Below the pieces are notes generated by a model. That model had not been told where the DNA came from. It did not search any database and worked only from the letters and a program-made list of their open reading frames with translations. A DNA stretch of 64,000 nucleotides, taken from NCBI GenBank assembly GCA_964499485.1, contig CAZCLF010000005.1, forward strand, positions 27,335-91,334, read 5' to 3'. Made by a program: the position numbers and the translations under genes. This document shows, one piece after another, positions 18,355-27,219 of the stretch (position 1 is the first letter of the stretch; every line of letters starts with the position of its first letter). Origin of the DNA: an uncultured Rhodocyclaceae bacterium. GTDB lineage: Bacteria > Pseudomonadota > Gammaproteobacteria > Burkholderiales > Rhodocyclaceae.

Positions 18355-18870
18355 ATGTCTGAACACAATCCACAAATTATCCTCATCGCTTGCATCGCAG
18401 CGAATGGCATCATCGGTCGTACCGACAATGGCGCAGCCACTTTGCCTTGGCATCTGCCCGAAGATTTGAAGCACTTCCGCGAACTCACCAACGGCCATGC
18501 TGTGGTGATGGGGCGTAAAACGTGGGAATCGCTGCCTGAGAAATTCCGGCCACTTCCGAATCGCCGCAATCTGGTCATCTCGCGCAATCCGGACTACGTC
18601 GCCCCCGGCGCGGAAGTTTTTGATTCCATCGCTAACGCCCATGCCGCTTGTCGGAATAGCGAAAAGTTCTTTGTTATTGGTGGCGCAGAGCTCTATACAC
18701 AAGCCATCAAAGATGCGGATAGTCTGGAGCTGACTGAGTTACATCAACCCTTTGAAGGCGATACCACCTTCCCTGATTTCGACCGCGATCAATGGCAGCA
18801 GGTTTTCCGTAGTTGCCACCGTAGTGAAACCGGCCTCGACTTCGACTTCGTTAGTTACGTGCGTCGTTGA
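18355..18870 (+). CDS. folA: Dihydrofolate reductase
   Basis: IGR.......LPWHLPEDLKHFRELT.GH.VVMGRKTWESLP and FVIGGAELY are DHFR motifs. Confidence 0.9.
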   Translation: MSEHNPQIILIACIAANGIIGRTDNGAATLPWHLPEDLKHFRELTNGHAVVMGRKTWESLPEKFRPLPNRRNLVISRNPDYVAPGAEVFDSIANAHAACRNSEKFFVIGGAELYTQAIKDADSLELTELHQPFEGDTTFPDFDRDQWQQVFRSCHRSETGLDFDFVSYVRR

Positions 18871-21004
18871 TACTGCCTGACCACGCGGGGACATCAAAGT
18901 CCTCCGGGGGTAGGCCAGCTATGTGGCGTTCCCACATCATTGCATAGGCGGTTTCGATTTCACGAACACGCCGTTCTGGGCAGAACAGGTTGCTCTCTGC
19001 ATAGTGAGCAACTTTCTCTCTCAGAGCGTTCCGCCATTCTGTATCTCTTGCCATCCGTACTACCAATCGCTTGTAGTCTGCGACTGTCGAGGCAATCAAT
19101 TCTTTGAGTCCGTGTGCTGCGAGCATGCTTGCTGCCACCCGTGATACAACCTGTGTGCCTGGAGCGGTGACAACAGGAACGCCTGCACCTAAAGCGTCAA
19201 TTGTCGTTGTATGCCCGTTGTAGGCGAGCGTGTCGAGATGGATATCTACCAACTGGTAACGTGCCAAGTGTTCACGGTTTGGCTTCGGTGGAGCGAAAAT
19301 TAAACGCTCCGGATTGACTCCATGTTCCAATGCCTCTGCGCACAGGTTAGCTCTTTGTTGTGGCACCTCCTCCAACAACCACAGCACCGCCTCCGGCAGC
19401 TCTTTTAGCAACGCCATCCACACTGAAAAACTACAGGGATCCAGTTTTTTTGGTCGATGTAATGCGCCCAGAATGAGCGCGTTTGTTGGCAGTCCGCAAT
19501 CCACTCGCTGGGGCGCTCGCAATGGCTCTGGCATTTCGCAGTGATAAGAGCAGTTGGGAAGGTATGCAATGTGCTCATCCCAAAAATCACGTACTTCCGG
19601 TAAAAGAATAATGCGATCAAGCAGGGTGTAATCGATCCATGGCGCCCCTTGGGTCCCCATGAAATCCATATAGGAGATCTGGATTGGTGCAGGTTTGAGT
19701 GCCATTACCGCAGGGCGTGCATTCAACATGTACCCAGACAGGTCAATGAGGATATCGATACCATCATTCACCATCATCTGCGCAATGGCGGCTGAAGGTA
19801 AATGGGCAACCTCCCTGAACACATCAACCCCATTTTTGACACGTAATCGCTCAGGGCTATCGTTGGGCTGATCCAGGCCATAGGCGAAAACATCGAAGCG
19901 TGAACGATCGTGCCGCGCGTAGATATTTCCCATCAGGCGGGCATTCGGGTGGGGCGAAAAGCACCCAGCTGCATAAGCAATCCTCAGTCGCTCTCGCCCA
20001 GTTCGGTGGTTGCGATGCAGTCGAATATCCGCCACCTCCCGTGATGTTCGGGCTGCAATCTGGCGACACACCTGACGTCTGAGCGCATCATTAACGGGAT
20101 CCGGCATCCCCAAAGCCGTGTAAGCGGCCTCAGGAAAGTCGAGGGGGGGCGGACCCAACTTCCCATTCACGAGATCAGCGTAGCACTGAATATCTGCTGA
20201 ATAATTGCCCCACTTACATATTGACTGGTCTTCATTCAATACAAATAAAAAGACACGTTCTGGACTTGGGTCCGAGTAGCCAGTTGCAACATCATGTACT
20301 AAAGGACTTTGGTAGGTGCTGACGAGTCCGGGTTCTGCGGCTAACGCTCTGAGCCGCTCACTATAGGCCTCTCTGATCTGGCCATCAGCTGCAAGCGCTA
20401 TCGACAACGCATATCGGGCGCGATGAAACTCTGCAGACAGTGCCAGCGCTTGTCTGAATGCATTTGCCGCTTCTTTGGGTTTTGCCAACCCCAGCAACAG
20501 GTCGCCCTGATTGAAACGTATCCAAGCATCTTGAGCGTAATGTGAGACGGCATCAGCCGCGGCCTCTTGAGCCTCCGCTTGACGAGAAAGCTTTGCTAGC
20601 AGCAATGGGCGGTTACGCAAGGCACCATAATGCGACGAGCTTATTGCCAAGACTTTGTCGTAACAATGAAGTGCCGCGGCATGCTCGTTCAGTACCGACA
20701 ACACAACCCCAGTATTGAACAAGCTGTCGGTATGTTCGCTATTTACTGACAAGGCAGCTTCACATGCCTTAAGTGCCTTTTTGGGTAACTGTAAGCGTAA
20801 GCAGATATCGCTAATACGATGCCATGCCTCAATATCTGCGGGGGATTGCTCGGTCAGTATTTGTAGTGCAGCAAGTGCATCTTCAAGTGCCCCCTGAGCA
20901 TGCAATGTTCTTGCTGTTTCGCGAAGGGCCTGCTGATCTAGGCGATAGAATGGATGATCAGTTCGGGTATGCGCATAGTATGCGTCGTTCGTTTCAACAG
21001 TCAT
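18851..21004 (-). CDS. TPR-repeat protein fused to an O-GlcNAc-transferase-like (GT41, SPINDLY/COG3914-type) domain
   Basis: The N-terminal ~250 aa are TPR-like helical repeats. The C-terminal half carries the Spy-type signature ...LDTLAYNGHTTTIDALGAGVPVVTAPG....SRVAASML.A.GL.ELIA....DY..L...A.D. The start is assumed at Met17 (21004). The 3' end overlaps folA by 20 bp, convergent. Confidence 0.7.
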   Translation of the reverse strand: MTVETNDAYYAHTRTDHPFYRLDQQALRETARTLHAQGALEDALAALQILTEQSPADIEAWHRISDICLRLQLPKKALKACEAALSVNSEHTDSLFNTGVVLSVLNEHAAALHCYDKVLAISSSHYGALRNRPLLLAKLSRQAEAQEAAADAVSHYAQDAWIRFNQGDLLLGLAKPKEAANAFRQALALSAEFHRARYALSIALAADGQIREAYSERLRALAAEPGLVSTYQSPLVHDVATGYSDPSPERVFLFVLNEDQSICKWGNYSADIQCYADLVNGKLGPPPLDFPEAAYTALGMPDPVNDALRRQVCRQIAARTSREVADIRLHRNHRTGRERLRIAYAAGCFSPHPNARLMGNIYARHDRSRFDVFAYGLDQPNDSPERLRVKNGVDVFREVAHLPSAAIAQMMVNDGIDILIDLSGYMLNARPAVMALKPAPIQISYMDFMGTQGAPWIDYTLLDRIILLPEVRDFWDEHIAYLPNCSYHCEMPEPLRAPQRVDCGLPTNALILGALHRPKKLDPCSFSVWMALLKELPEAVLWLLEEVPQQRANLCAEALEHGVNPERLIFAPPKPNREHLARYQLVDIHLDTLAYNGHTTTIDALGAGVPVVTAPGTQVVSRVAASMLAAHGLKELIASTVADYKRLVVRMARDTEWRNALREKVAHYAESNLFCPERRVREIETAYAMMWERHIAGLPPEDFDVPAWSGSINDARN

Positions 21005-21038
21005 GGCAGCATGTTGCCACACTCCATTTTCTTTGCCT

Positions 21039-22022
21039 ATGTCAGCCCACACAATTCACGTCGTTGCCAGCCTACAAGGCCTAAGTGGCGCAGAAACGCA
21101 TTCAGCATCACTCGTGCGCTGCCTCAATCAAGCGGGTGCAGATGTGGTCTTCTGGAGTGATCGCAGCAGCCCTATAGTGAATCAGTATCGTGCCCATGAG
21201 ATACGTCCATTTGGGGGGGCGATGCCTCGTGGTGGCACGCTGATATTGGTTGGGGCTTATCTGAACTTGATGCCGTGGATTGCACATGCTCGCCCACAGC
21301 GACTTGTGCTCGTGTGTATTAATTCTGACCCGGTTTCTTTCCAGCGCACACTCGGGATTTTGCGGCAACCAAGTCTGCCCGATGTAGAGATCGTTTATGT
21401 CAGTTCCCGTTTACGCGACACCATGGGGCTACCGGGAATCATATGCCCGGAGATCATGGATATGGAAACCTTTTATCCTTGTGAAGACCAAGCAGAAGAA
21501 AACCGTATGGTCGTTGGGCGCCTCTCGCGAGACACTCCAGATAAGCATCACCCGGACGATCCGTCGCTCTACCGCCTACTCGTCCATGCTGGCTTCAATG
21601 TTCGCATCATGGGCGGGCTGTGTTTATCGGATACTTTAGAAAACACAGAGGGGGTCGATCTACTTCCAGCTGGAACAGTGCCGGCAGCTACCTTTCTACG
21701 AAGCCTAGATATCTTTTTCTACCGTACCAGCCCAAGCTGGAACGAACCGTCAGGTCGGGTTGTTATGGAAGCTCTTGCATGTGGACTACCCGTTGTAGCC
21801 CACGTCAGCGGGGGCTATACCGACTGGATCCGCAATGGCGAAAATGGCTTCGTCTTTCGCGAGCAAGAAGAAGCTTGGGAAATTTTAACTACGCTCAAAG
21901 CACGGCCCGATATATGTAAAAGAATGCGTAGGGCGGCTCGAGAAACGGCCAATGAATTGGCCGGTCCCGCCGCACGCGATCATTACATTTCGTGGCTCAA
22001 AAGCATCAAACCCTTTAACTAG
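21039..22022 (+). CDS. GT4-family (GT-B, retaining) glycosyltransferase
   Basis: The C-terminal EX7E motif is EPSGRVVMEALACGLPVV, followed by NGENGFVF. The start is assumed at MSAHTIHVV (21039). Confidence 0.7.
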   Translation: MSAHTIHVVASLQGLSGAETHSASLVRCLNQAGADVVFWSDRSSPIVNQYRAHEIRPFGGAMPRGGTLILVGAYLNLMPWIAHARPQRLVLVCINSDPVSFQRTLGILRQPSLPDVEIVYVSSRLRDTMGLPGIICPEIMDMETFYPCEDQAEENRMVVGRLSRDTPDKHHPDDPSLYRLLVHAGFNVRIMGGLCLSDTLENTEGVDLLPAGTVPAATFLRSLDIFFYRTSPSWNEPSGRVVMEALACGLPVVAHVSGGYTDWIRNGENGFVFREQEEAWEILTTLKARPDICKRMRRAARETANELAGPAARDHYISWLKSIKPFN

Positions 22023-23379
22023 AACTGGGTGGTGTAGTCGTCAGCGATTGCTGTTTGAAAGCAGCGGCGCCTGAGGTTACATCGCTACCGTCATTAATTT
22101 TATACACAATCCCGGCGTGGCTCGCATTCGAGCCTGCAAACAAGCCCTGCACCGAAGCGGTAGCTCCACTTCCCCCACCGGTGACGGACCCTGACATTGA
22201 GAAAGTCGAGGAGCCCCATGTCGAACCACTGTACGAATAATTCGTTGAACCAGCTTGAACTGACAGATTCAATTGAACGTTGACCGAGCCACTGCTATCG
22301 AATGCAGCTGTAAGACTGCCGCTCGTAACAGAAGCGGAACCGAGTGATGATGTCGGATTGGTATAGCCAATCAGGCTATACGTGCCGGTCATATTATGAA
22401 TACCGGTAAAGTCTGTCGTTGGCTTGCCGACTACATAGTGCAGTGAACTCAGTGCCGTGCCTGAGTTATAAGACGCAGGACTCCATAAGCCCCAGCCAAT
22501 CACGCCATCAAAGGAAAACGATCCAACCACCGTCTCAGCTTTGTAGATCGTTCCGGCATTAATCGCAGTGAGCTTAGAGGCCTCAGCGAATGTCGCGGTA
22601 ACTGAGGAGTTGGAGCCAATATCGTGGGAGCTCGCACTGTCCTTATAAGTCCATGCAGCTGCATAACCTGAGCCAGATACTAAATCGGGACCAAATAAAC
22701 TCAGCGTCCCTGACGAGTTCCGATTTTCACTCGTTGAATAAGTCACGGCCGCCGGTTCAGTTGCAGCCGCAGGCGGTAACGCCGGCCGACTTTCCGTCCG
22801 CCGAGGTTGTGAGTTGTTTCCGGTCACAATGGCTGACTCACCACCCGCGACCGTCACACAACCGCCAGCATTACATACTTCAATCGCACCTTCGCCAGTG
22901 GCGAGCGAAAGCTGACCATCTTGTCCGCCAGTGAAGCGCACTGCATATTCCGTCCCACGAATACCAATGGTGGCCACGGAGGTAGAAATGCGATAACTGT
23001 CTCGATTCGTACGGCCAACTAAGCCAGTAATTGTACGTAGCCCCCCTTTGATGAGGCTAAAGAAACCCCGCTCACCGCCATCGGACTTTCCTTCAAAACG
23101 GTAATCGTCGATCCGAAATTCGGTCTGCGGCTGGAGCGACAACATAGAGCCATCCGTGAAACGAATTTGCGCGCGTGCGCCATCGCTGGTTCGGATAGTG
23201 TCGCCAGACTCGAGTGCGCTACCCTTCCCTAAGGGACGTTGCGAACCTGTTGCTGTTACCGCGACTACAGTCCCGGCCGCAAACTCGACGCGGCCTGCGG
23301 CAGCATGCCCGATCAAAGGGTATGCTCCAGCAAGCGCCATCATGAGAATGGAATTTTTTAAGCGGAATTGAGGCTTCAT
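22015..23379 (-). CDS. Secreted FecR-domain protein with a Ser/Thr/Gly-rich linker and a TbpB/fHbp-type C-terminal beta-barrel signature; candidate Slam/T11SS cargo
   Basis: The signal peptide is MKPQFRLKNSILMMALAGAYPLIGHAAAG, with no lipobox Cys. The FecR motifs are GDTIRTSDGARAQIRFTDGSMLSL.P.TEF and IGIRGTEY. The C-terminal string GTYSLIGY...GSLTAAFDSSGSVNVQLNLSV...STFSMSGSVTG...VQGLFAGSNASHAGIVY...SGAAAFKQQ parallels the conserved strands of TbpB_B_D-type barrels. Confidence 0.6.
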   Translation of the reverse strand: MKPQFRLKNSILMMALAGAYPLIGHAAAGRVEFAAGTVVAVTATGSQRPLGKGSALESGDTIRTSDGARAQIRFTDGSMLSLQPQTEFRIDDYRFEGKSDGGERGFFSLIKGGLRTITGLVGRTNRDSYRISTSVATIGIRGTEYAVRFTGGQDGQLSLATGEGAIEVCNAGGCVTVAGGESAIVTGNNSQPRRTESRPALPPAAATEPAAVTYSTSENRNSSGTLSLFGPDLVSGSGYAAAWTYKDSASSHDIGSNSSVTATFAEASKLTAINAGTIYKAETVVGSFSFDGVIGWGLWSPASYNSGTALSSLHYVVGKPTTDFTGIHNMTGTYSLIGYTNPTSSLGSASVTSGSLTAAFDSSGSVNVQLNLSVQAGSTNYSYSGSTWGSSTFSMSGSVTGGGSGATASVQGLFAGSNASHAGIVYKINDGSDVTSGAAAFKQQSLTTTPPSSS

Positions 23380-23398
23380 GTCTTTATCCTTGCTCAGC

Positions 23399-24721
23399 TT
23401 AGAACTCTTGCCTGAGAGTCAGTGAGACGGTGTCTCGTTCATATTGGTTAAAAGCCGTATTCGAGCGCTGATCTGTACGCGAATACTGCCCCACCAGTTT
23501 GAGCGTTCTGTTCAGCGCATGGCTGATGCCTGCGCCAAAATTAAATTGCTTATCTTCCCGCTCCACCAAAAAGGTAGTGTCAATCGCCTTGTGGTTCCGA
23601 ATTTCGTAACCCAAATTAGTGAAGAGTGTTGTGTCGGTCCCCAATCGCATTTGGCCTCCCAATCGCAGCCCATAGCCATCGAGATTAAGCGAGCGTGAAG
23701 TTGTATCGCGGTGCACGGACTCTTCAAGCATGTACACGCTTACGTAGCCCAACATGCCATTTCGGAGCGCATGTGCATAAGCCCCACCCCATACCCAGCG
23801 ATTTGCGTCACGCGCAGGCTGGTGGGTATATGTCAGGTCGCTATACTGAACAAAAGCACTTACTTGATTACGCGCATCAATATTGTTTTGCCACTGAGCA
23901 GTGAAGCCGAGTGCTTCACGGAAGCGCGAATTTTCAACGTGGGCAGAACTTGCCTGGCCACTTAAGGAGTAAACGTTTTTGTCTTCTTTGTAGACCAAAC
24001 CAAGATTGGCATCTGCGGTTAGCAAGTCCACATCGCTGCGATCCTGATGCAAACGCTGCGATCCTGATGCGCCGGCTACGATCGCCAATTGCTTGTTTAA
24101 CGGGGAGCGAACATTCACCCCTGCACCAACACTGCCAAACCAGTCACCCGTCGCACGGCTCGTGTTATTGAGCGTTAATGCGAGGCCGCCGAAAGACGGA
24201 ATAGCGATTGCCGACTTGTCAGGGCCCGCATTGACATTCGTGTCGTACCCGAACGTAGCTTCAACGTAGCCAGCTACCTTGGTTTTTCCCTCATTTTCGA
24301 GGCGCTCTACGGCAACCAGAAGGTTATCAATACTTTTTTCAACATCCCCCGGCACACCCAAATTTTTGACCGCTTGCAACTCGTTGCGAGCGGATTCAGT
24401 TTCTCCTGTAGCGAGGTAAGCTCGGCCAATTTCGGCTCGAGCACGAGCGTTTTTAGGATCTTGGGCAAGAATACGTTCAAGGGCAAAGATGGCGCGCGTG
24501 TTTTGTCCGATCTCCAATGCGGCGAGGGCAAAGAGCAGATCAAAATTGACATCACCAGCACGTGTGCTTTCTTGCGGCTCAAGCAATGCGTAAGTAGCTT
24601 TAGCATCACCTGCTTGCATGAATTTTTGGGCTTGCTCTATCAGTGCGTCAGCAGCATGCGCTTGCTGCATGGATAGAGCGCAAGCGATAGCCAGCACGCC
24701 CATGCTTCTTTGGTACTTCAT
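23399..24721 (-). CDS. Outer-membrane protein with an N-terminal TPR region and a C-terminal beta-barrel: Slam/DUF560-like (type XI secretion) candidate
   Basis: The signal peptide ends AHA|ADA. A TPR-like segment follows (ALAALEIGQNTRAIFALERILAQDPKNARARAEIGRAYL). The rest is amphipathic beta-strand-rich, starts near GYVEATFGYDTNVN and ends ...VSLTLRQEF with a terminal aromatic residue. The cargo-like gene lies 19 bp downstream. Confidence 0.55.
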   Translation of the reverse strand: MKYQRSMGVLAIACALSMQQAHAADALIEQAQKFMQAGDAKATYALLEPQESTRAGDVNFDLLFALAALEIGQNTRAIFALERILAQDPKNARARAEIGRAYLATGETESARNELQAVKNLGVPGDVEKSIDNLLVAVERLENEGKTKVAGYVEATFGYDTNVNAGPDKSAIAIPSFGGLALTLNNTSRATGDWFGSVGAGVNVRSPLNKQLAIVAGASGSQRLHQDRSDVDLLTADANLGLVYKEDKNVYSLSGQASSAHVENSRFREALGFTAQWQNNIDARNQVSAFVQYSDLTYTHQPARDANRWVWGGAYAHALRNGMLGYVSVYMLEESVHRDTTSRSLNLDGYGLRLGGQMRLGTDTTLFTNLGYEIRNHKAIDTTFLVEREDKQFNFGAGISHALNRTLKLVGQYSRTDQRSNTAFNQYERDTVSLTLRQEF

Positions 24722-24978
24722 ACTCCCCCCTAGTAAATTCCCACTTACCAGAATTCTAGGGCATGTGGCGCCTCGCTAGCAACCACTAGATGCATTCAGG
24801 CCCATAAATATGTGCCTAAAATCAAATATCTACGCTTGGTGAGCGAAAAGCCAAAATCACAAGCTTTGTGAGAAAAAGGCTGACACACTCAAGCTTTTTG
24901 GTTTCCTTTTTCTCAGTTCCATAGCTATGTTGGGGCTCATGCACCACGGCAAGGCACAAACGACTGGCGGCGCACCAA

Positions 24979-27219
24979 TCAGTTGCGTACGCAGTCCACG
25001 TAATAGCCTAGGTTACCCGTGCCGTCATCCTTAACCAAACCATGAATGTCGGTTTCGAAGCCGGGGAAGCGTTCGTTGAAGTCACGGGCGAACTTCAGAT
25101 AGTTCACGATCTTCTTGTTGAAACGCTCGCCTGGGATCAGCAACGGGATACCGGGTGGATAAGGCGTCACCAGCATGGCGGTGATGCGGCCTTCGAGCTC
25201 GTCAATTGCCACGCGCTCAATCTCGCGATGCGCCATTTTGGCGAAGGCGTCTGACGGCTTCATGGCCGGCTCCATGTCCGACAGGTACATCTCTGTCGTC
25301 AGGCGCGCCACGTCGTTAGCCCGATACACATCATGGATCTGCTGGCACAAATCGCGCAGGCCCATGCGCTCATAGCGCACATGCTTGGCAACAAACTCAG
25401 GCAGCACGCGCCACAGCGGCTGGTTCTTGTCGTAATCGTCCTTGAACTGCTGCAGCGCCGTCACCAAGGTGTTCCAACGGCCCTTGGTGATACCGATGGT
25501 GAACATGATGAAGAAAGAATAGAGGCCGCACTTCTCGACGATCACACCATGCTCGGCGAGATACTTGGTCACAATAGCGGCGGGGATACCGAACTCGTCA
25601 GAGAAGTCGCCGTCGACGTCCAAACCCGGGGTAATGATGGTGGCTTTGATCGGATCGAGCAGGTTGAAGTTATCGGCCAGATTGCCGAAGCCGTGCCAAC
25701 GCTCGCCGGCCTTGAGCATCCAGCTGTCGCGCTCTTCCAAGCCCTCTTCGGACAAGTCATCCGGCCCCCAGACCTTGAACCACCAGTCCACACCCCACTC
25801 TTCGTCAACCTTGCGCATGGCACGGCGGAAATCGAGGGCTTCGGTGAGCGACTCTTCCACCAGCGCGGTTCCGCCCGGTGCTTCCATCATCGCCGCGGCA
25901 ACGTCGCACGAGGCAATGATTGAGTATTGCGGTGAGGTGGAGGTGTGCATGAGGTAAGCCTCATTGAACACATCGCGGTCGAGCTTATTGTTCTGTGCAT
26001 CCTGCACGAGGATTTGCGAGGCTTGGCTCAAACCGGCCAGCAGCTTGTGCGTAGACTGCGTCGAGAAAATCATCGACTCCTTGCAGCGTGGACGATCTGC
26101 GCCGATGGCGTGATAGTCGCCATAGAAATCGTGGAAGGCGGCATGCGGCAGCCAAGCTTCGTCGAAATGCAGCGTATCGATCTTGCCATCCAGCTCATCC
26201 TTAATCGCTTCGACGTTGTAAAGAATACCGTCATAGGTACTCTGCGTGATCGTCAGCACGCGTGGCTGCCCCTTGACCTTGCTAGCGAAGGGGTGAGCAG
26301 CAATCTTCTTTTGGATACTTTCCCAGCTGAACTCGGCTTTCGGAATGGGGCCGATGATGCCGAAGTTGTTGCGTGTCGGCATCAGGAATACTGGGATCGC
26401 GCCGGTCATCATGATGGCGTGCAGAATCGACTTGTGACAGTTGCGGTCGACGATGACGATATCGCCCGGTGCAACCGTCGAGTGCCAAACAATCTTGTTC
26501 GAGGTGGACGTGCCGTTGGTGACAAAGAACAAATGGTCCGCATTAAAAATACGCGCCGCATTGCGCTCTGACGCGGCAATCGGGCCGGTGTGATCAAGCA
26601 ACTGACCAAGTTCTTCGACCGCATTACAGACGTCAGCACGCAACATGTTCTCGCCGAAGAACTGGTGGAACATCCGTCCCACAGGCGACTTCAGAAACGC
26701 CACACCACCCGAGTGACCAGGGCAGTGCCACGAATACGAACCATCCGCTGCGTAGTCGGTCAGGGCGCGGAAGAATGGGGGTGGGAGCGAATCGACATAC
26801 GCCTTAGCTTCACGGATGACGTGACGCGCAATGAACTCAGGCGTGTCTTCATACATATGGATGAAGCCATGCAGCTCGCGCAGGATATCGTTCGGGATAT
26901 GGCGTGAGGTACGCGTTTCGCCATGCAGGAAGATTGGAATCTCGGCGTTCTTGAAACGAATCTCTTCAACGAAAGCCCGCAGCTCGGCAATTGTCTCGTC
27001 CTCTTCCATCGCCAGCTCTTCATCATCGACGGACAGAATGAATGCCGATGCACGGCTTTGCTGCTGGGCAAAGGACGTCAGATCGCCATAGCTAGTGACC
27101 CCGATCACCTCCATGCTTTCCTTCTCGATGGCCTCGGCCAATGCGCGGATACCTAGACCCGAAGCATTTTCCGAGCGGAAGTCTTCGTCGATAATGATGA
27201 TAGGAAAGTGGAAGCGCAT
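24979..27219 (-). CDS. Orn/Lys/Arg decarboxylase family enzyme (large PLP fold-type I, biodegradative type)
   Basis: The N-terminal wing domain is MRFHFPIIIIDEDF. The PLP-lysine motif is FSTQSTHKLLAGLSQAS and the family's C-terminal domain is present. The start at 27219 has AGGAG 5 nt upstream. The track start at 27255 has no SD. Confidence 0.88.
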   Translation of the reverse strand: MRFHFPIIIIDEDFRSENASGLGIRALAEAIEKESMEVIGVTSYGDLTSFAQQQSRASAFILSVDDEELAMEEDETIAELRAFVEEIRFKNAEIPIFLHGETRTSRHIPNDILRELHGFIHMYEDTPEFIARHVIREAKAYVDSLPPPFFRALTDYAADGSYSWHCPGHSGGVAFLKSPVGRMFHQFFGENMLRADVCNAVEELGQLLDHTGPIAASERNAARIFNADHLFFVTNGTSTSNKIVWHSTVAPGDIVIVDRNCHKSILHAIMMTGAIPVFLMPTRNNFGIIGPIPKAEFSWESIQKKIAAHPFASKVKGQPRVLTITQSTYDGILYNVEAIKDELDGKIDTLHFDEAWLPHAAFHDFYGDYHAIGADRPRCKESMIFSTQSTHKLLAGLSQASQILVQDAQNNKLDRDVFNEAYLMHTSTSPQYSIIASCDVAAAMMEAPGGTALVEESLTEALDFRRAMRKVDEEWGVDWWFKVWGPDDLSEEGLEERDSWMLKAGERWHGFGNLADNFNLLDPIKATIITPGLDVDGDFSDEFGIPAAIVTKYLAEHGVIVEKCGLYSFFIMFTIGITKGRWNTLVTALQQFKDDYDKNQPLWRVLPEFVAKHVRYERMGLRDLCQQIHDVYRANDVARLTTEMYLSDMEPAMKPSDAFAKMAHREIERVAIDELEGRITAMLVTPYPPGIPLLIPGERFNKKIVNYLKFARDFNERFPGFETDIHGLVKDDGTGNLGYYVDCVRN

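What the first reader, a model, noticed from the sequence alone, without database searches (positions are those of the whole stretch)
22015..24721. Slam/DUF560-like outer-membrane protein paired with a secreted FecR-domain protein carrying a TbpB/fHbp-type C-terminal barrel signature: a candidate type XI secretion pair with non-canonical cargo
Two genes form a minus-strand operon with a 19-bp gap. The upstream 440-aa product has a signal peptide and an N-terminal TPR-like region. It then has a long amphipathic beta-barrel that starts around GYDTNVN and ends in ...LRQEF. That is the architecture of surface lipoprotein assembly modulators (Slam, DUF560, T11SS). The downstream 454-aa product has a Sec signal peptide without a lipobox and a clear FecR domain (GDTIRTSDGARAQIRFTDGSMLSL, IGIRGTEY). 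A low-complexity S/T/G linker follows. The last ~135 aa contain the ordered strings GTYSLIGY / GSLTAAFDSSGSVNVQLNLSV / STFSMSGSVTG / VQGLFAGSNASHAGIVY / SGAAAFKQQ. These mirror the conserved strands of the 8-stranded barrel found in TbpB, LbpB, fHbp, HpuA and hemophilin (..G.FFG..A.E.aG.f ... GaFGAkkQ), which is the Slam-recognised domain. Characterised T11SS cargo are host-metal or heme-acquisition and immune-evasion proteins. To my knowledge a FecR-type sensor-like domain exported this way, and as a non-lipoprotein, has not been characterised. No TonB-dependent receptor, sigma factor or anti-sigma TM segment accompanies it here.
Basis: partly seen in the sequence, partly recalled or inferred. 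Interest (0 to 1): 0.72.

Follow-up and report, generated by a model that had tools for sequence, protein, structure and literature searches.

The report
Slam-type secretion pair with FecR-domain cargo
Two adjacent genes encode a Slam-family (type 11) outer-membrane exporter and a protein built like its known cargo but carrying a new FecR-type front domain, a pairing conserved in many environmental Betaproteobacteria, where cargo for this secretion system has been largely unknown.

Summary
The 440-aa protein is a DUF560/SlipAM outer-membrane protein: 54.9 bits over the full profile, an N-terminal TPR region, and 14 strands in a confident model. The 454-aa protein has a signal peptide without a lipobox, a FecR domain, a roughly 40-residue disordered linker, a β-rich handle and an eight-stranded barrel. 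Foldseek matches to solved structures are almost all validated Slam cargo: TbpB, HpuA, fHbp, hemophilin/HphA, NHBA and LbpB. A Slam-type gene lies in 77 of 80 loci from different species.

- The barrel resemblance holds for fold only. Pfam, a PDB profile search and hhalign against fHbp all fail.
- Non-lipidated Slam cargo is already known.
- The supposed low-complexity linker is mostly a folded handle.

New findings:
- The pair sits in a 6-kb hypervariable cassette with an OGT-type GT41 and a GT4 glycosyltransferase.
- Relatives carry one to six barrel copies.
- The FecR module is the most conserved part and keeps the Gly-Thr motif.

I rate it a new variant of a known kind. Secretion itself is untested.

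The parts
23399..24721 (-). Slam-family (T11SS, DUF560) outer-membrane protein, 440 aa
   Evidence: PF04575 at 54.9 bits covering profile 4-288/288, plus TPR_19. AF2 model pLDDT 89.9. At least 120 homologue clusters, some named 'surface lipoprotein assembly modifier' by NCBI.
24293..24604 (-). Periplasmic TPR region of the OMP (residues about 40-143)
   Evidence: Pfam TPR_19 and TPR_16 hits at residues 63-119. Helices 40-143 in the AF2 model.
23402..24280 (-). Predicted 14-stranded β-barrel of the OMP (residues 148-440), ending in an invariant Phe
   Evidence: 14 long strands by DSSP on the AF2 model. Best TM-scores are to the 14-stranded OmpG, CymA and FadL. F440 is invariant.
22015..23379 (-). 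Predicted T11SS cargo, 454 aa: signal peptide, FecR domain, linker, handle, 8-stranded barrel
   Evidence: Starts 19 nt after the OMP stop codon, with an AGGA ribosome-binding site.
23299..23379 (-). Sec-type signal peptide without lipobox (residues 1-27, MKPQFRLKNSILMMALAGAYPLIGHAA|AG)
   Evidence: Read directly from the sequence: basic n-region, hydrophobic core, no Cys. Low-pLDDT helix at 10-19. No dedicated signal-peptide predictor was available.
22795..23298 (-). FecR-type β domain (residues 28-195) with invariant G142-T143 (ATIGIRGTE) and C169/C174
   Evidence: PF04773 E=3e-15. Foldseek 4m0n anti-sigma factor, TMt 0.48-0.50, rmsd 3.5. Invariant columns. Most conserved module, 63% mean pairwise identity.
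22675..22794 (-). Pro/Ser/Thr-rich disordered linker (residues 196-235), variable in length
   Evidence: pLDDT <50 at 206-220. 32% mean identity, with poly-Pro insertions in homologues.
22420..22674 (-). β-rich handle/pedestal domain (residues 236-320), with the GVIGWGxW motif
   Evidence: pLDDT >90, strands across 236-318. Aligns with TbpB lobes and hemophilin in Foldseek.
22036..22419 (-). Eight-stranded soluble β-barrel (residues 321-448), the presumed Slam-recognition domain
   Evidence: Eight strands at pLDDT >90. Foldseek hits to TbpB C-lobe, NHBA C-domain (TMt 0.58), fHbp, HpuA and HphA. 36% Ser+Thr and 4.5% charged residues. 1,255 representative proteins carry this domain.
21039..22022 (+). 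GT4 glycosyltransferase (327 aa), convergent with the cargo gene and overlapping its 3' end by 8 nt; probable accessory gene
   Evidence: Pfam Glycos_transf_1. Gene call. At the same position in 15 or more loci. Lies inside the variable cassette.
18851..21004 (-). TPR + GT41 OGT/SPINDLY-type protein O-glycosyltransferase (717 aa); probable accessory gene
   Evidence: PF13844 at 246.6 bits. PDB matches: OGT 1e-66, XcOGT 1e-56. Lies downstream of the cargo on the same strand in about 38-45 of 80 loci, including loci without the ldc/dcd flank.
19001..24983 (.). Hypervariable cassette (Slam, cargo, GT4, GT41) between conserved housekeeping flanks
   Evidence: blastn against L076: flanks 88-93% identical, interior only 63-74% in patches. 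Protein identity is 100% for ldc and dcd, against 48-56% for the four cassette genes. GC 0.52-0.54 versus 0.57-0.58 in the flanks.
24753..24782 (-). Sigma-70-like promoter match upstream of the OMP gene (weak)
   Evidence: 9/12 consensus match. Such matches are no more frequent here than in shuffled sequence, so this is only a positional candidate.

Best explanation
This is a type 11 (Slam-family) secretion pair.

**Proposed pathway**
1. The 454-aa protein is exported by Sec and its signal peptide is cleaved by signal peptidase I. It has no lipid anchor.
2. It is kept unfolded in the periplasm.
3. Its C-terminal handle plus eight-stranded barrel is recognised by the adjacent TPR and 14-stranded DUF560 outer-membrane protein, which moves it across the outer membrane.
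4. Outside the cell, the barrel and handle act as the secretion scaffold ('pedestal'), and the N-terminal FecR-type β domain is the functional 'effector'.

**Shown here**
- The identities of the domains.
- The predicted folds.
- The operon arrangement.
- The conserved adjacency.

**Inferred by analogy with TbpB/Slam1 and HphA/HsmA**
- Translocation itself.
- Its direction.
- The role of the barrel as the targeting signal.

**Weaker inference**
The linked OGT-type GT41 and the GT4 may glycosylate this Ser/Thr-rich protein. The whole 4-gene cassette may then diversify because its product is exposed on the cell surface.
For: **The outer-membrane protein**
- DUF560 above Pfam's cut-off over the full profile, plus TPR.
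- A 14-strand AF2 model at pLDDT 89.9.

**The cargo**
- The AF2 model has pLDDT >90 over residues 225-448, with a handle and exactly eight strands.
- Foldseek top hits are TbpB (5e-7), TbpB C-lobe (TMt 0.47), HpuA, fHbp, A. baumannii and V. harveyi HphA, NHBA (TMt 0.58) and LbpB. These are the validated Slam cargo (compare).
- 2 of 23 family members weakly touch PF22829 HphA_C.

**Linkage**
- 19-nt gap with ribosome-binding sites.
- A Slam-type gene lies in 77 of 80 species loci, always on the same strand.
- The two genes are replaced together in the cassette swap against L076.

**Family behaviour**
- Longer relatives have 2 to 6 handle-barrel lobes, like the bilobed TbpB and LbpB.
- Known cargo families also share no sequence similarity with each other (PMC5449769).
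- Non-lipidated cargo is established for HphA.
Against: - No experiment was done. Secretion and surface exposure are inferred.
- The barrel matches no sequence model of known cargo: Pfam gives nothing at E<=10, a PDB profile search gives 0 hits, and hhalign against fHbp gives probability 0.3%.
- Foldseek TM-scores at domain level are moderate (0.47-0.58), and I could not model the barrel on its own.
- No solved Slam structure was available to compare the OMP model with.
- The OMP does not hit PF24575 TPR_Slam.
- One locus (L025) has the cargo gene without a Slam nearby.
- The FecR module is the most conserved part. That fits a periplasmic partner-binding role at least as well as an exposed effector role.
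Confidence: 0.75

Rival explanations
1. **Tethered, membrane-spanning topology.** The Slam exports only the C-terminal handle and barrel. The FecR-type N-domain folds in the periplasm and cannot pass, so it acts as a retention plug as in LapA-type adhesins. The Pro-rich linker threads through the barrel. The result is a non-lipidated but surface-anchored protein, possibly able to pass information across the outer membrane.
For: - NCBIfam NF033682 (LapA retention module) matches residues 31-92 at E=1.8e-8.
- The FecR module is the most conserved part, and the handle, barrel and linker are the most variable. That pattern fits a periplasmic module and an exposed module.
- An invariant C169/C174 pair could form a periplasmic disulfide.
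- The linker is 40 or more disordered residues, long enough to span the membrane.
- About 19 loci encode an extra barrel-less FecR paralogue just upstream of the Slam gene. It would stay periplasmic and could pair with a retained FecR domain.
- Slam is reported to take cargo by a C-terminal motif (PMC9090332).
Against: - The retention-module hit is below the curated cut-off (34.7 versus 50 bits).
- No LapG/LapD-type release system and no periplasmic signalling partner is conserved nearby.
- Known T11SS cargo is either fully released or lipid-anchored.
- Nothing computed here bears on topology directly.
Confidence: 0.17
2. **Periplasmic partner, no translocation.** The FecR-domain protein stays in the periplasm and docks on or regulates the TPR-barrel OMP. 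It would be a FecR-like sensing module that has lost its anti-sigma part.
For: - FecR domains normally work in the periplasm, next to outer-membrane proteins.
- The G142-T143 motif matching the FecR/FoxR self-cleavage site is invariant.
- FecR is a frequent neighbour of T11SS genes as a regulator.
Against: - There is no transmembrane or anti-sigma segment, no FecR_C domain, and no sigma factor, TonB-dependent receptor or kinase in conserved neighbourhoods.
- This reading leaves the confidently modelled TbpB-type handle and barrel, and their duplication to 2-6 lobes, unexplained.
Confidence: 0.05
3. **Polysaccharide export.** The cassette makes and exports a glycan. The TPR-barrel OMP would be a BcsC/PelB/PgaA-like polysaccharide porin and the FecR-barrel protein an accessory.
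For: - The best Foldseek E-values for the OMP are to BcsC (1e-13), with PelBC also listed.
- There are weak NCBIfam hits to BcsC, EpsL and PgaA.
- Two glycosyltransferases lie in the same variable cassette.
Against: - DUF560 is matched over its full length, above the curated cut-off.
- The model has 14 strands.
- No polysaccharide synthase, flippase or polymerase is conserved nearby.
- The GT41 is a protein O-glycosyltransferase type.
- Methyloversatilis and other loci keep the Slam-cargo pair without any glycosyltransferase.
Confidence: 0.03

Closest known systems
HphA/hemophilin with HsmA (Slam-dependent, non-lipidated hemophores; Acinetobacter, Haemophilus, Vibrio, Stenotrophomonas)
   Same: - The cargo is Sec-exported, cut by signal peptidase I and has no lipobox.
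- It has an N-terminal functional part followed by a C-terminal eight-stranded barrel.
- Its gene lies next to its own Slam homologue.
- Foldseek hits 7re4 and 8gm3, and the only Pfam trace is HphA_C.
   Different: - There is no TonB-dependent receptor, heme oxygenase or iron regulator in the neighbourhood.
- The cargo carries an extra 170-residue FecR domain and a long linker ahead of the handle.
- Barrel sequence similarity is not significant.
- The hosts are environmental Rhodocyclaceae and Burkholderiales.
TbpB/LbpB with Slam1 (Neisseria, Moraxella, Pasteurellaceae surface lipoproteins)
   Same: - The cargo is built from handle plus eight-stranded barrel lobes. These give the best Foldseek hits.
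- Relatives have 2 to 6 lobes, like the bilobed TbpB.
- The OMP combines TPR and DUF560.
   Different: - The cargo is not lipidated.
- There is no transferrin or iron context.
- No match to PF01298.
- The OMP does not hit PF24575 TPR_Slam.
[quoted passage not shown]
   Same: - PF04773 domain, with structural similarity to 4m0n.
- The Gly-Thr motif is invariant (G142-T143 in ATIGIRGTE), as at the FecR Gly181-Thr182 and FoxR Gly191-Thr192 self-cleavage sites.
   Different: - No cytoplasmic anti-sigma domain, no transmembrane helix and no FecR_C domain.
- No partner sigma factor or TonB-dependent transducer.
- The domain follows a cleavable signal peptide directly.
HMW1A/HMW1B/HMW1C of Haemophilus influenzae (two-partner secretion with a GT41 glycosyltransferase; from my own knowledge, not checked here)
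   Same: The three-part logic is the same: a secreted protein, a dedicated outer-membrane transporter and a GT41-family glycosyltransferase, encoded together and inherited as a block.
   Different: - The transporter is a Slam/T11SS, not a TpsB.
- The GT41 is the OGT/SPINDLY type with TPRs, not the HMW1C N-glycosyltransferase type (NGT model at only 13 bits).
- Glycosylation of the cargo is not shown, and N-X-S/T sites are not enriched.
LapA-type RTX adhesins with an N-terminal retention module
   Same: The N-terminal roughly 60 residues of the FecR domain match the retention-module model at E=1.8e-8. The layout is also shared: a C-terminal secretion signal with a potentially plugging N-terminal domain.
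   Different: - That system is type 1 secretion and has no periplasmic intermediate.
- The hit is below the curated cut-off.
- No LapG/LapD-type genes are nearby.
Leptospira LipL45/Lsa33 (FecR-domain surface lipoproteins)
   Same: They show a FecR-type domain in proteins annotated as surface adhesins (NCBIfam hits at E=5e-8 and 2.5e-6).
   Different: - They are spirochaete lipoproteins with no Slam and no TbpB-type barrel.
- The hits are far below the cut-offs.

Membership tests
Slam / T11SS outer-membrane protein (DUF560, PF04575) | DUF560/SlipAM domain above the curated threshold | tested here: met
   54.9 bits against a cut-off of 22, E=1.2e-14, profile positions 4-288 of 288.
Slam / T11SS outer-membrane protein (DUF560, PF04575) | N-terminal periplasmic TPR domain (PMC5449769) | tested here: met
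   TPR_19 E=1e-9. Helices 40-143 in the AF2 model. The Neisseria-type PF24575 TPR_Slam model itself was not hit.
Slam / T11SS outer-membrane protein (DUF560, PF04575) | 14-stranded membrane β-barrel (PMC5449769) | tested here: met
   The AF2 model (pLDDT 89.9) has 14 long strands across 148-439. This is a prediction only, since no solved Slam was available for comparison.
Slam / T11SS outer-membrane protein (DUF560, PF04575) | Encoded next to a protein with a handle plus eight-stranded barrel | tested here: met
   19-nt gap in the window. A Slam-type gene lies in 77 of 80 loci.
Slam / T11SS outer-membrane protein (DUF560, PF04575) | Required for translocation of its cargo across the outer membrane | not testable with these tools
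   Needs a co-expression or knockout secretion assay.
Slam/T11SS cargo (TbpB-like fold) | C-terminal eight-stranded soluble β-barrel | tested here: met
   Eight strands across 330-448 at pLDDT >90. Foldseek hits to TbpB, fHbp, HpuA, HphA, NHBA and LbpB. The outward-facing residues are polar, with 36% Ser+Thr.
Slam/T11SS cargo (TbpB-like fold) | β-rich handle/pedestal preceding the barrel | tested here: met
   Strands across 236-318 at pLDDT >90. Whole-lobe alignment to the TbpB C-lobe 5kkx over 248 columns.
Slam/T11SS cargo (TbpB-like fold) | Sec signal peptide (lipobox optional) | tested here: met
   By inspection only: MKPQFRLK, then a hydrophobic core, then HAA|AG, with no Cys. Conserved in 41 homologues. 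No signal-peptide predictor was available.
Slam/T11SS cargo (TbpB-like fold) | Sequence membership of a known cargo barrel family (PF01298 TbpB_B_D, PF08794 lipoprotein C, PF22829 HphA_C) | tested here: not met
   - No Pfam hit at E<=10.
- 2 of 23 relatives hit HphA_C weakly, at E=0.006.
- The PDB profile search found 0 hits.
- hhalign against fHbp gave probability 0.3%.

The barrel is therefore a new sequence family with the same fold. Known cargo families also lack mutual sequence similarity.
Slam/T11SS cargo (TbpB-like fold) | Slam-dependent surface display or secretion | not testable with these tools
   Experimental.
FecR-type anti-sigma factor / sigma regulator | PF04773 periplasmic domain | tested here: met
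   56.8 bits. Foldseek 4m0n.
FecR-type anti-sigma factor / sigma regulator | N-terminal cytoplasmic anti-sigma domain and a transmembrane helix | tested here: not met
   The FecR domain starts at about residue 28, straight after the signal peptide. There is no room for such a segment.
FecR-type anti-sigma factor / sigma regulator | Partner ECF sigma factor and TonB-dependent transducer in the locus | tested here: not met
   None appears among the conserved neighbours in 80 loci or in the window flanks.
LapA-type retention module (NF033682) | Match above the curated cut-off | tested here: inconclusive
   E=1.8e-8, but 34.7 bits against a cut-off of 50, residues 31-92.

The most novel reading that the evidence does not exclude
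The FecR-type N-domain is not an exported effector. It is a periplasmic retention and coupling module, homologous to LapA-type retention plugs. The Slam barrel would then be permanently threaded by the Pro-rich linker.

The product would be a lipid-free, surface-tethered protein that spans the outer membrane. Its variable handle and barrel lobes (1 to 6 of them) would face outward, and its conserved FecR domain, which may self-cleave at G142-T143, would face the periplasm.

In addition, the co-inherited OGT-type GT41 (with the GT4) would O-glycosylate the Ser/Thr-rich protein in the cytoplasm before Sec export. That would be a type 11 counterpart of the HMW1ABC logic.
Probability: 0.15. Interest if true: 0.85.

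Novelty: new variant of a known kind. Interest (0 to 1): 0.62.

Why it matters
**Why T11SS specialists would care**
- All experimentally validated type 11 secretion cargo comes from one animal-associated cluster. The field states that most T11SS outer-membrane proteins have no known or predicted cargo (PMC12282271).
- This finding supplies a concrete, widely conserved cargo class for environmental Betaproteobacteria, including wastewater genera such as Propionivibrio, Azonexus, Dechloromonas, Accumulibacter, Azospira and Methyloversatilis.
- The cargo has a previously unlisted FecR-type effector domain.
- Its barrel is a sequence family that Pfam does not model. The family has 1,255 representative proteins, with up to six lobes per protein.

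**Why it is testable**
- Cultured hosts exist: Azospira oryzae DSM 21223 and Methyloversatilis universalis FAM5.
- The E. coli co-expression assay is standard in the field.

**Further leads**
- The linked OGT-type glycosyltransferase bears on a question the T11SS authors raised themselves, namely whether T11SS cargo is glycosylated.
- The cassette-like replacement points to selection at the cell surface.

Tried and rejected
**Sequence tests of the barrel**
- Pfam on the isolated C-terminal 225 and 141 residues at E<=10: no hits.
- phmmer of the whole protein and hmmsearch of the barrel profile against PDB: no hits.
- hhalign of the barrel profile against the fHbp barrel, whose sequence I verified as 100% identical to 1ys5: probability 0.3%.

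**The outer-membrane protein**
- Foldseek found no solved Slam, only generic 14- to 18-stranded barrels and the TPR-barrel exporters. It could not confirm 'Slam-type' beyond the strand count.

**Glycosylation and co-evolution leads**
- N-glycosylation lead: N-X-S/T sites are not enriched (6 observed against 3.7 expected, p about 0.11). The GT41 is OGT-type rather than HMW1C-type.
- Co-evolution test: cargo-Slam identity correlates at r=0.74, but correlations with the housekeeping ldc are 0.62-0.84, so the signal is mostly phylogeny and uninformative.

**Neighbourhood leads**
- Search for receptor, sigma or kinase partners among conserved neighbours: only housekeeping genes and antisense shadow ORFs turned up.
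- A PEP-CTERM/vWA-like ORF upstream in L007 looked like the DUF1194 link reported for marine T11SS. It occurs in that locus only.

**Other checks**
- Rfam scan of 18-26 kb: nothing.
- Promoter and terminator scan: not above the shuffled expectation.
- Assigning the OMP to one of the ten published SSN clusters failed, because the stored supplementary table is truncated.

Full report
**1. The observation**

Two minus-strand ORFs lie exactly where stated: 23399-24721 (440 aa) and 22015-23379 (454 aa). They are separated by 19 nt. AGGA lies 8 nt before the second ATG, and GGGGGGAG lies just before the first ATG. No related copy exists elsewhere in the window.

**2. The outer-membrane protein**

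- Pfam gives PF04575 SlipAM/DUF560 at E=1.2e-14. The score is 54.9 bits against a cut-off of 22, covering profile positions 4-288 of 288. It also gives TPR_19 at E=1e-9.
- At least 120 homologue clusters of 35-63% identity exist, mostly in Rhodocyclaceae. NCBI already names several of them 'surface lipoprotein assembly modifier'.
- An AlphaFold2 model built on 38 homologues has mean pLDDT 89.9. It shows helices at 40-143 followed by 14 long strands at 148-439.
- The terminal Phe and the GYDTNVN motif are invariant.
- This matches the published definition of Slam: a periplasmic TPR domain plus a predicted 14-stranded DUF560 barrel (PMC5449769).
- Foldseek found no solved Slam. The best TM-scores are to the 14-stranded OmpG, CymA and FadL, and the best E-values are to the TPR-barrel exporter BcsC.

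**3. The 454-aa protein**

- The N-terminus reads as a Sec signal peptide with no cysteine.
- PF04773 FecR covers residues 60-166 at E=3e-15.
- An AlphaFold2 model built on 41 homologues has mean pLDDT 84.8, and above 90 over residues 225-448. It divides the protein as follows:
  - FecR β domain, residues 28-195;
  - disordered linker, about 196-235 (pLDDT <50 at 206-220);
  - β-rich handle, 236-318;
  - exactly eight strands, 330-448.
- Foldseek against the PDB returns TbpB (best E=5e-7), the TbpB C-lobe (TMt 0.47-0.48), HpuA, fHbp, A. baumannii and V. harveyi HphA, the NHBA C-domain (TMt 0.58) and LbpB. Those are the validated Slam cargo.
- The FecR-type anti-sigma structure 4m0n matches the N-domain (TMt about 0.5, rmsd 3.5).
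- So the protein has the three-part plan described for T11SS cargo: effector, pedestal and C-terminal barrel (PMC12282271).

**4. What is not supported**

- The barrel has no significant sequence match to any known cargo family:
  - no Pfam hit at E<=10;
  - no PDB hit with a 23-sequence profile;
  - only 2 of 23 relatives touch HphA_C, at E about 0.006;
  - hhalign against a verified fHbp barrel gives probability 0.3%.
- This is not disqualifying. The known cargo families are themselves reported to share no sequence similarity.
- Non-lipidated Slam cargo is already established as HphA/hemophilin. Only the FecR effector domain is new.

**5. Conservation of the pairing**

- A scan of one genome per species found 591 genomes with a relative, and the best 80 loci were fetched.
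- tblastn finds a Slam-type gene in 77 of the 80 loci, always on the cargo's strand:
  - in about 70 it is directly upstream, with a gap of 213 nt or less;
  - in three it is directly downstream;
  - in two another gene lies between.
- Of the three loci without a Slam gene, two have no upstream sequence on the contig. One (L025) is a real orphan, sitting between ilvA and a lytic transglycosylase gene.
- No TonB-dependent receptor, sigma factor or kinase recurs in these neighbourhoods.
- In the literature, FecR appears next to T11SS genes only as an iron regulator listed with sigma-70 domains. None of the roughly ten published cargo architectures has a FecR domain.

**6. Extent of the barrel family**

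- An exhaustive profile search finds 1,255 representative proteins at E<=0.001, and 499 at E<=1e-10.
- They carry one to six barrel copies, in proteins up to 3,351 aa.
- Of ten sampled, six have an N-terminal FecR hit, four of them above Pfam's cut-off. Pfam never recognises the barrel.
- Variants of about 700 aa visibly contain two handle-barrel lobes, like TbpB and LbpB.

**7. Wider context: a variable cassette**

- In about 38-45 of the 80 loci, a TPR plus GT41 gene follows the cargo gene on the same strand. An opposite-strand GT4 often lies between them, as in this window (GT4 at 21039-22022 on the plus strand, GT41 at 18851-21004 on the minus strand).
- This includes loci that lack the ldc/dcd flank (L018, L063, L077, L080).
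- The GT41 is OGT/SPINDLY-type: human and Drosophila OGT at 1e-66, XcOGT at 1e-56.
- Against L076, the flanking DNA is 88-93% identical, and the ldc and dcd proteins are 100% identical.
- Between window positions 19001 and 24983, however, only patches of 63-74% identity remain. The four proteins there are 48-56% identical.
- GC content also dips there.
- The four genes therefore behave as one replaceable module.
- Within the cargo, mean pairwise identity is 63% for FecR, 42% for the handle, 44% for the barrel and 32% for the linker.
- The barrel region is 36% Ser+Thr with few charged residues. N-X-S/T sites are not enriched.

**8. Mechanism**

The best-supported reading, with confidence about 0.75, runs in five steps:
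1. Sec export of the 454-aa protein.
2. Cleavage by signal peptidase I.
3. An unfolded periplasmic intermediate.
4. Recognition of the C-terminal barrel by the Slam-type OMP.
5. Translocation across the outer membrane.

These steps follow TbpB/Slam1 and HphA/HsmA.

- Shown here: the domain identities, predicted folds, operon arrangement and conserved adjacency.
- Inferred: translocation itself, and the final location of the protein.

The main alternative concerns topology. The conserved FecR module may stay in the periplasm as a plug, with only the variable lobes exposed. Four things point that way:
- it matches the LapA retention-module model at E=1.8e-8, though below the cut-off;
- it carries an invariant Cys pair;
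- it carries an invariant Gly-Thr like the FecR/FoxR self-cleavage site;
- about 19 loci add a barrel-less FecR paralogue upstream of the Slam gene.

Glycosylation of the cargo by the linked GT41 and GT4 is an inference from co-inheritance only.

**9. Verdict**

- The OMP is a member of a known family.
- The cargo has the known cargo fold, but its barrel is a new sequence family and its effector domain is unreported.
- It comes with a new accessory context and is found in environmental bacteria, where T11SS cargo has been an open question.
- I rate it a new variant of a known kind, with interest 0.62.

Noticed in passing
window 19001-24983; L076 6403-12385: The Slam, cargo, GT4 and GT41 genes form a hypervariable cassette. 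Against a near-identical genome, the flanks are 88-93% identical at DNA level and ldc and dcd are 100% identical as proteins. The four cassette proteins are only 48-56% identical. GC is also about 4-5 points lower than in the flanks.
   Followed up: yes
window 18851-21004 (-) and 21039-22022 (+): A TPR plus GT41 OGT/SPINDLY-type protein O-glycosyltransferase and a GT4 enzyme are co-inherited with the secretion pair in many genomes. This raises the possibility that the Ser/Thr-rich cargo is glycosylated. The longest-ORF calls for the two genes overlap at 21003-21052, and gene callers use the shorter starts at 21004 and 21039.
   Followed up: partly
L007 5950-6624 and about 19 other loci (e.g. 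L010, L011, L014, L038, L046, L067): A short paralogue lies immediately upstream of the Slam gene. It has a signal peptide, a FecR domain and a Pro-rich tail, with no handle or barrel. It is absent from this window.
   Followed up: partly
window 22951-22956 (cargo residues G142-T143 within ATIGIRGTE): The Gly-Thr pair is invariant across 41 homologues. It lies within the stretch that matches the part of FecR containing its Gly181-Thr182 non-enzymatic self-cleavage site. I did not verify that the alignment columns correspond exactly.
   Followed up: partly
P0241, P0291, P0302, P0305, P0340 and others; P0016, P0002, P0104: Relatives carry 2 to 6 tandem handle-barrel lobes, in proteins up to 3,351 aa. 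Some barrel-containing proteins (P0248, P0262, P0343, P0356) show no FecR domain at all.
   Followed up: partly
P0024, P0053, P0061 (MALAAC...), P0117 (VIAC) in alignment A1: A minority of homologues have a lipobox-like L-A-A-C or V-I-A-C in the signal peptide. The family may therefore include both lipidated and non-lipidated members, as hemophilin-like cargo does.
   Followed up: no
L025 8001-9419: An orphan cargo gene sits between ilvA and a lytic transglycosylase gene, with no Slam-type gene within 8 kb on either side.
   Followed up: yes
L017 5237-9416; L072 3191-9389: In Candidatus Desulfobacillus denitrificans (L017), a second, shorter cargo-like gene sits between the Slam gene and the full-length cargo gene. 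In L072, an opposite-strand FecR-like gene intervenes.
   Followed up: no
L007 4866-5390: A PEP-CTERM protein with a vWA/DUF1194-like motif lies upstream of the locus, recalling the DUF1194 link reported for marine T11SS. tblastn finds it in this one locus only, so it is probably incidental.
   Followed up: yes
window cargo residues 31-92 (23104-23289): The first half of the FecR domain matches NCBIfam's LapA 'retention module' model (E=1.8e-8, 34.7 bits, below the cut-off of 50). It also matches the Leptospira FecR-domain surface proteins Lsa33 and LipL45.
   Followed up: partly
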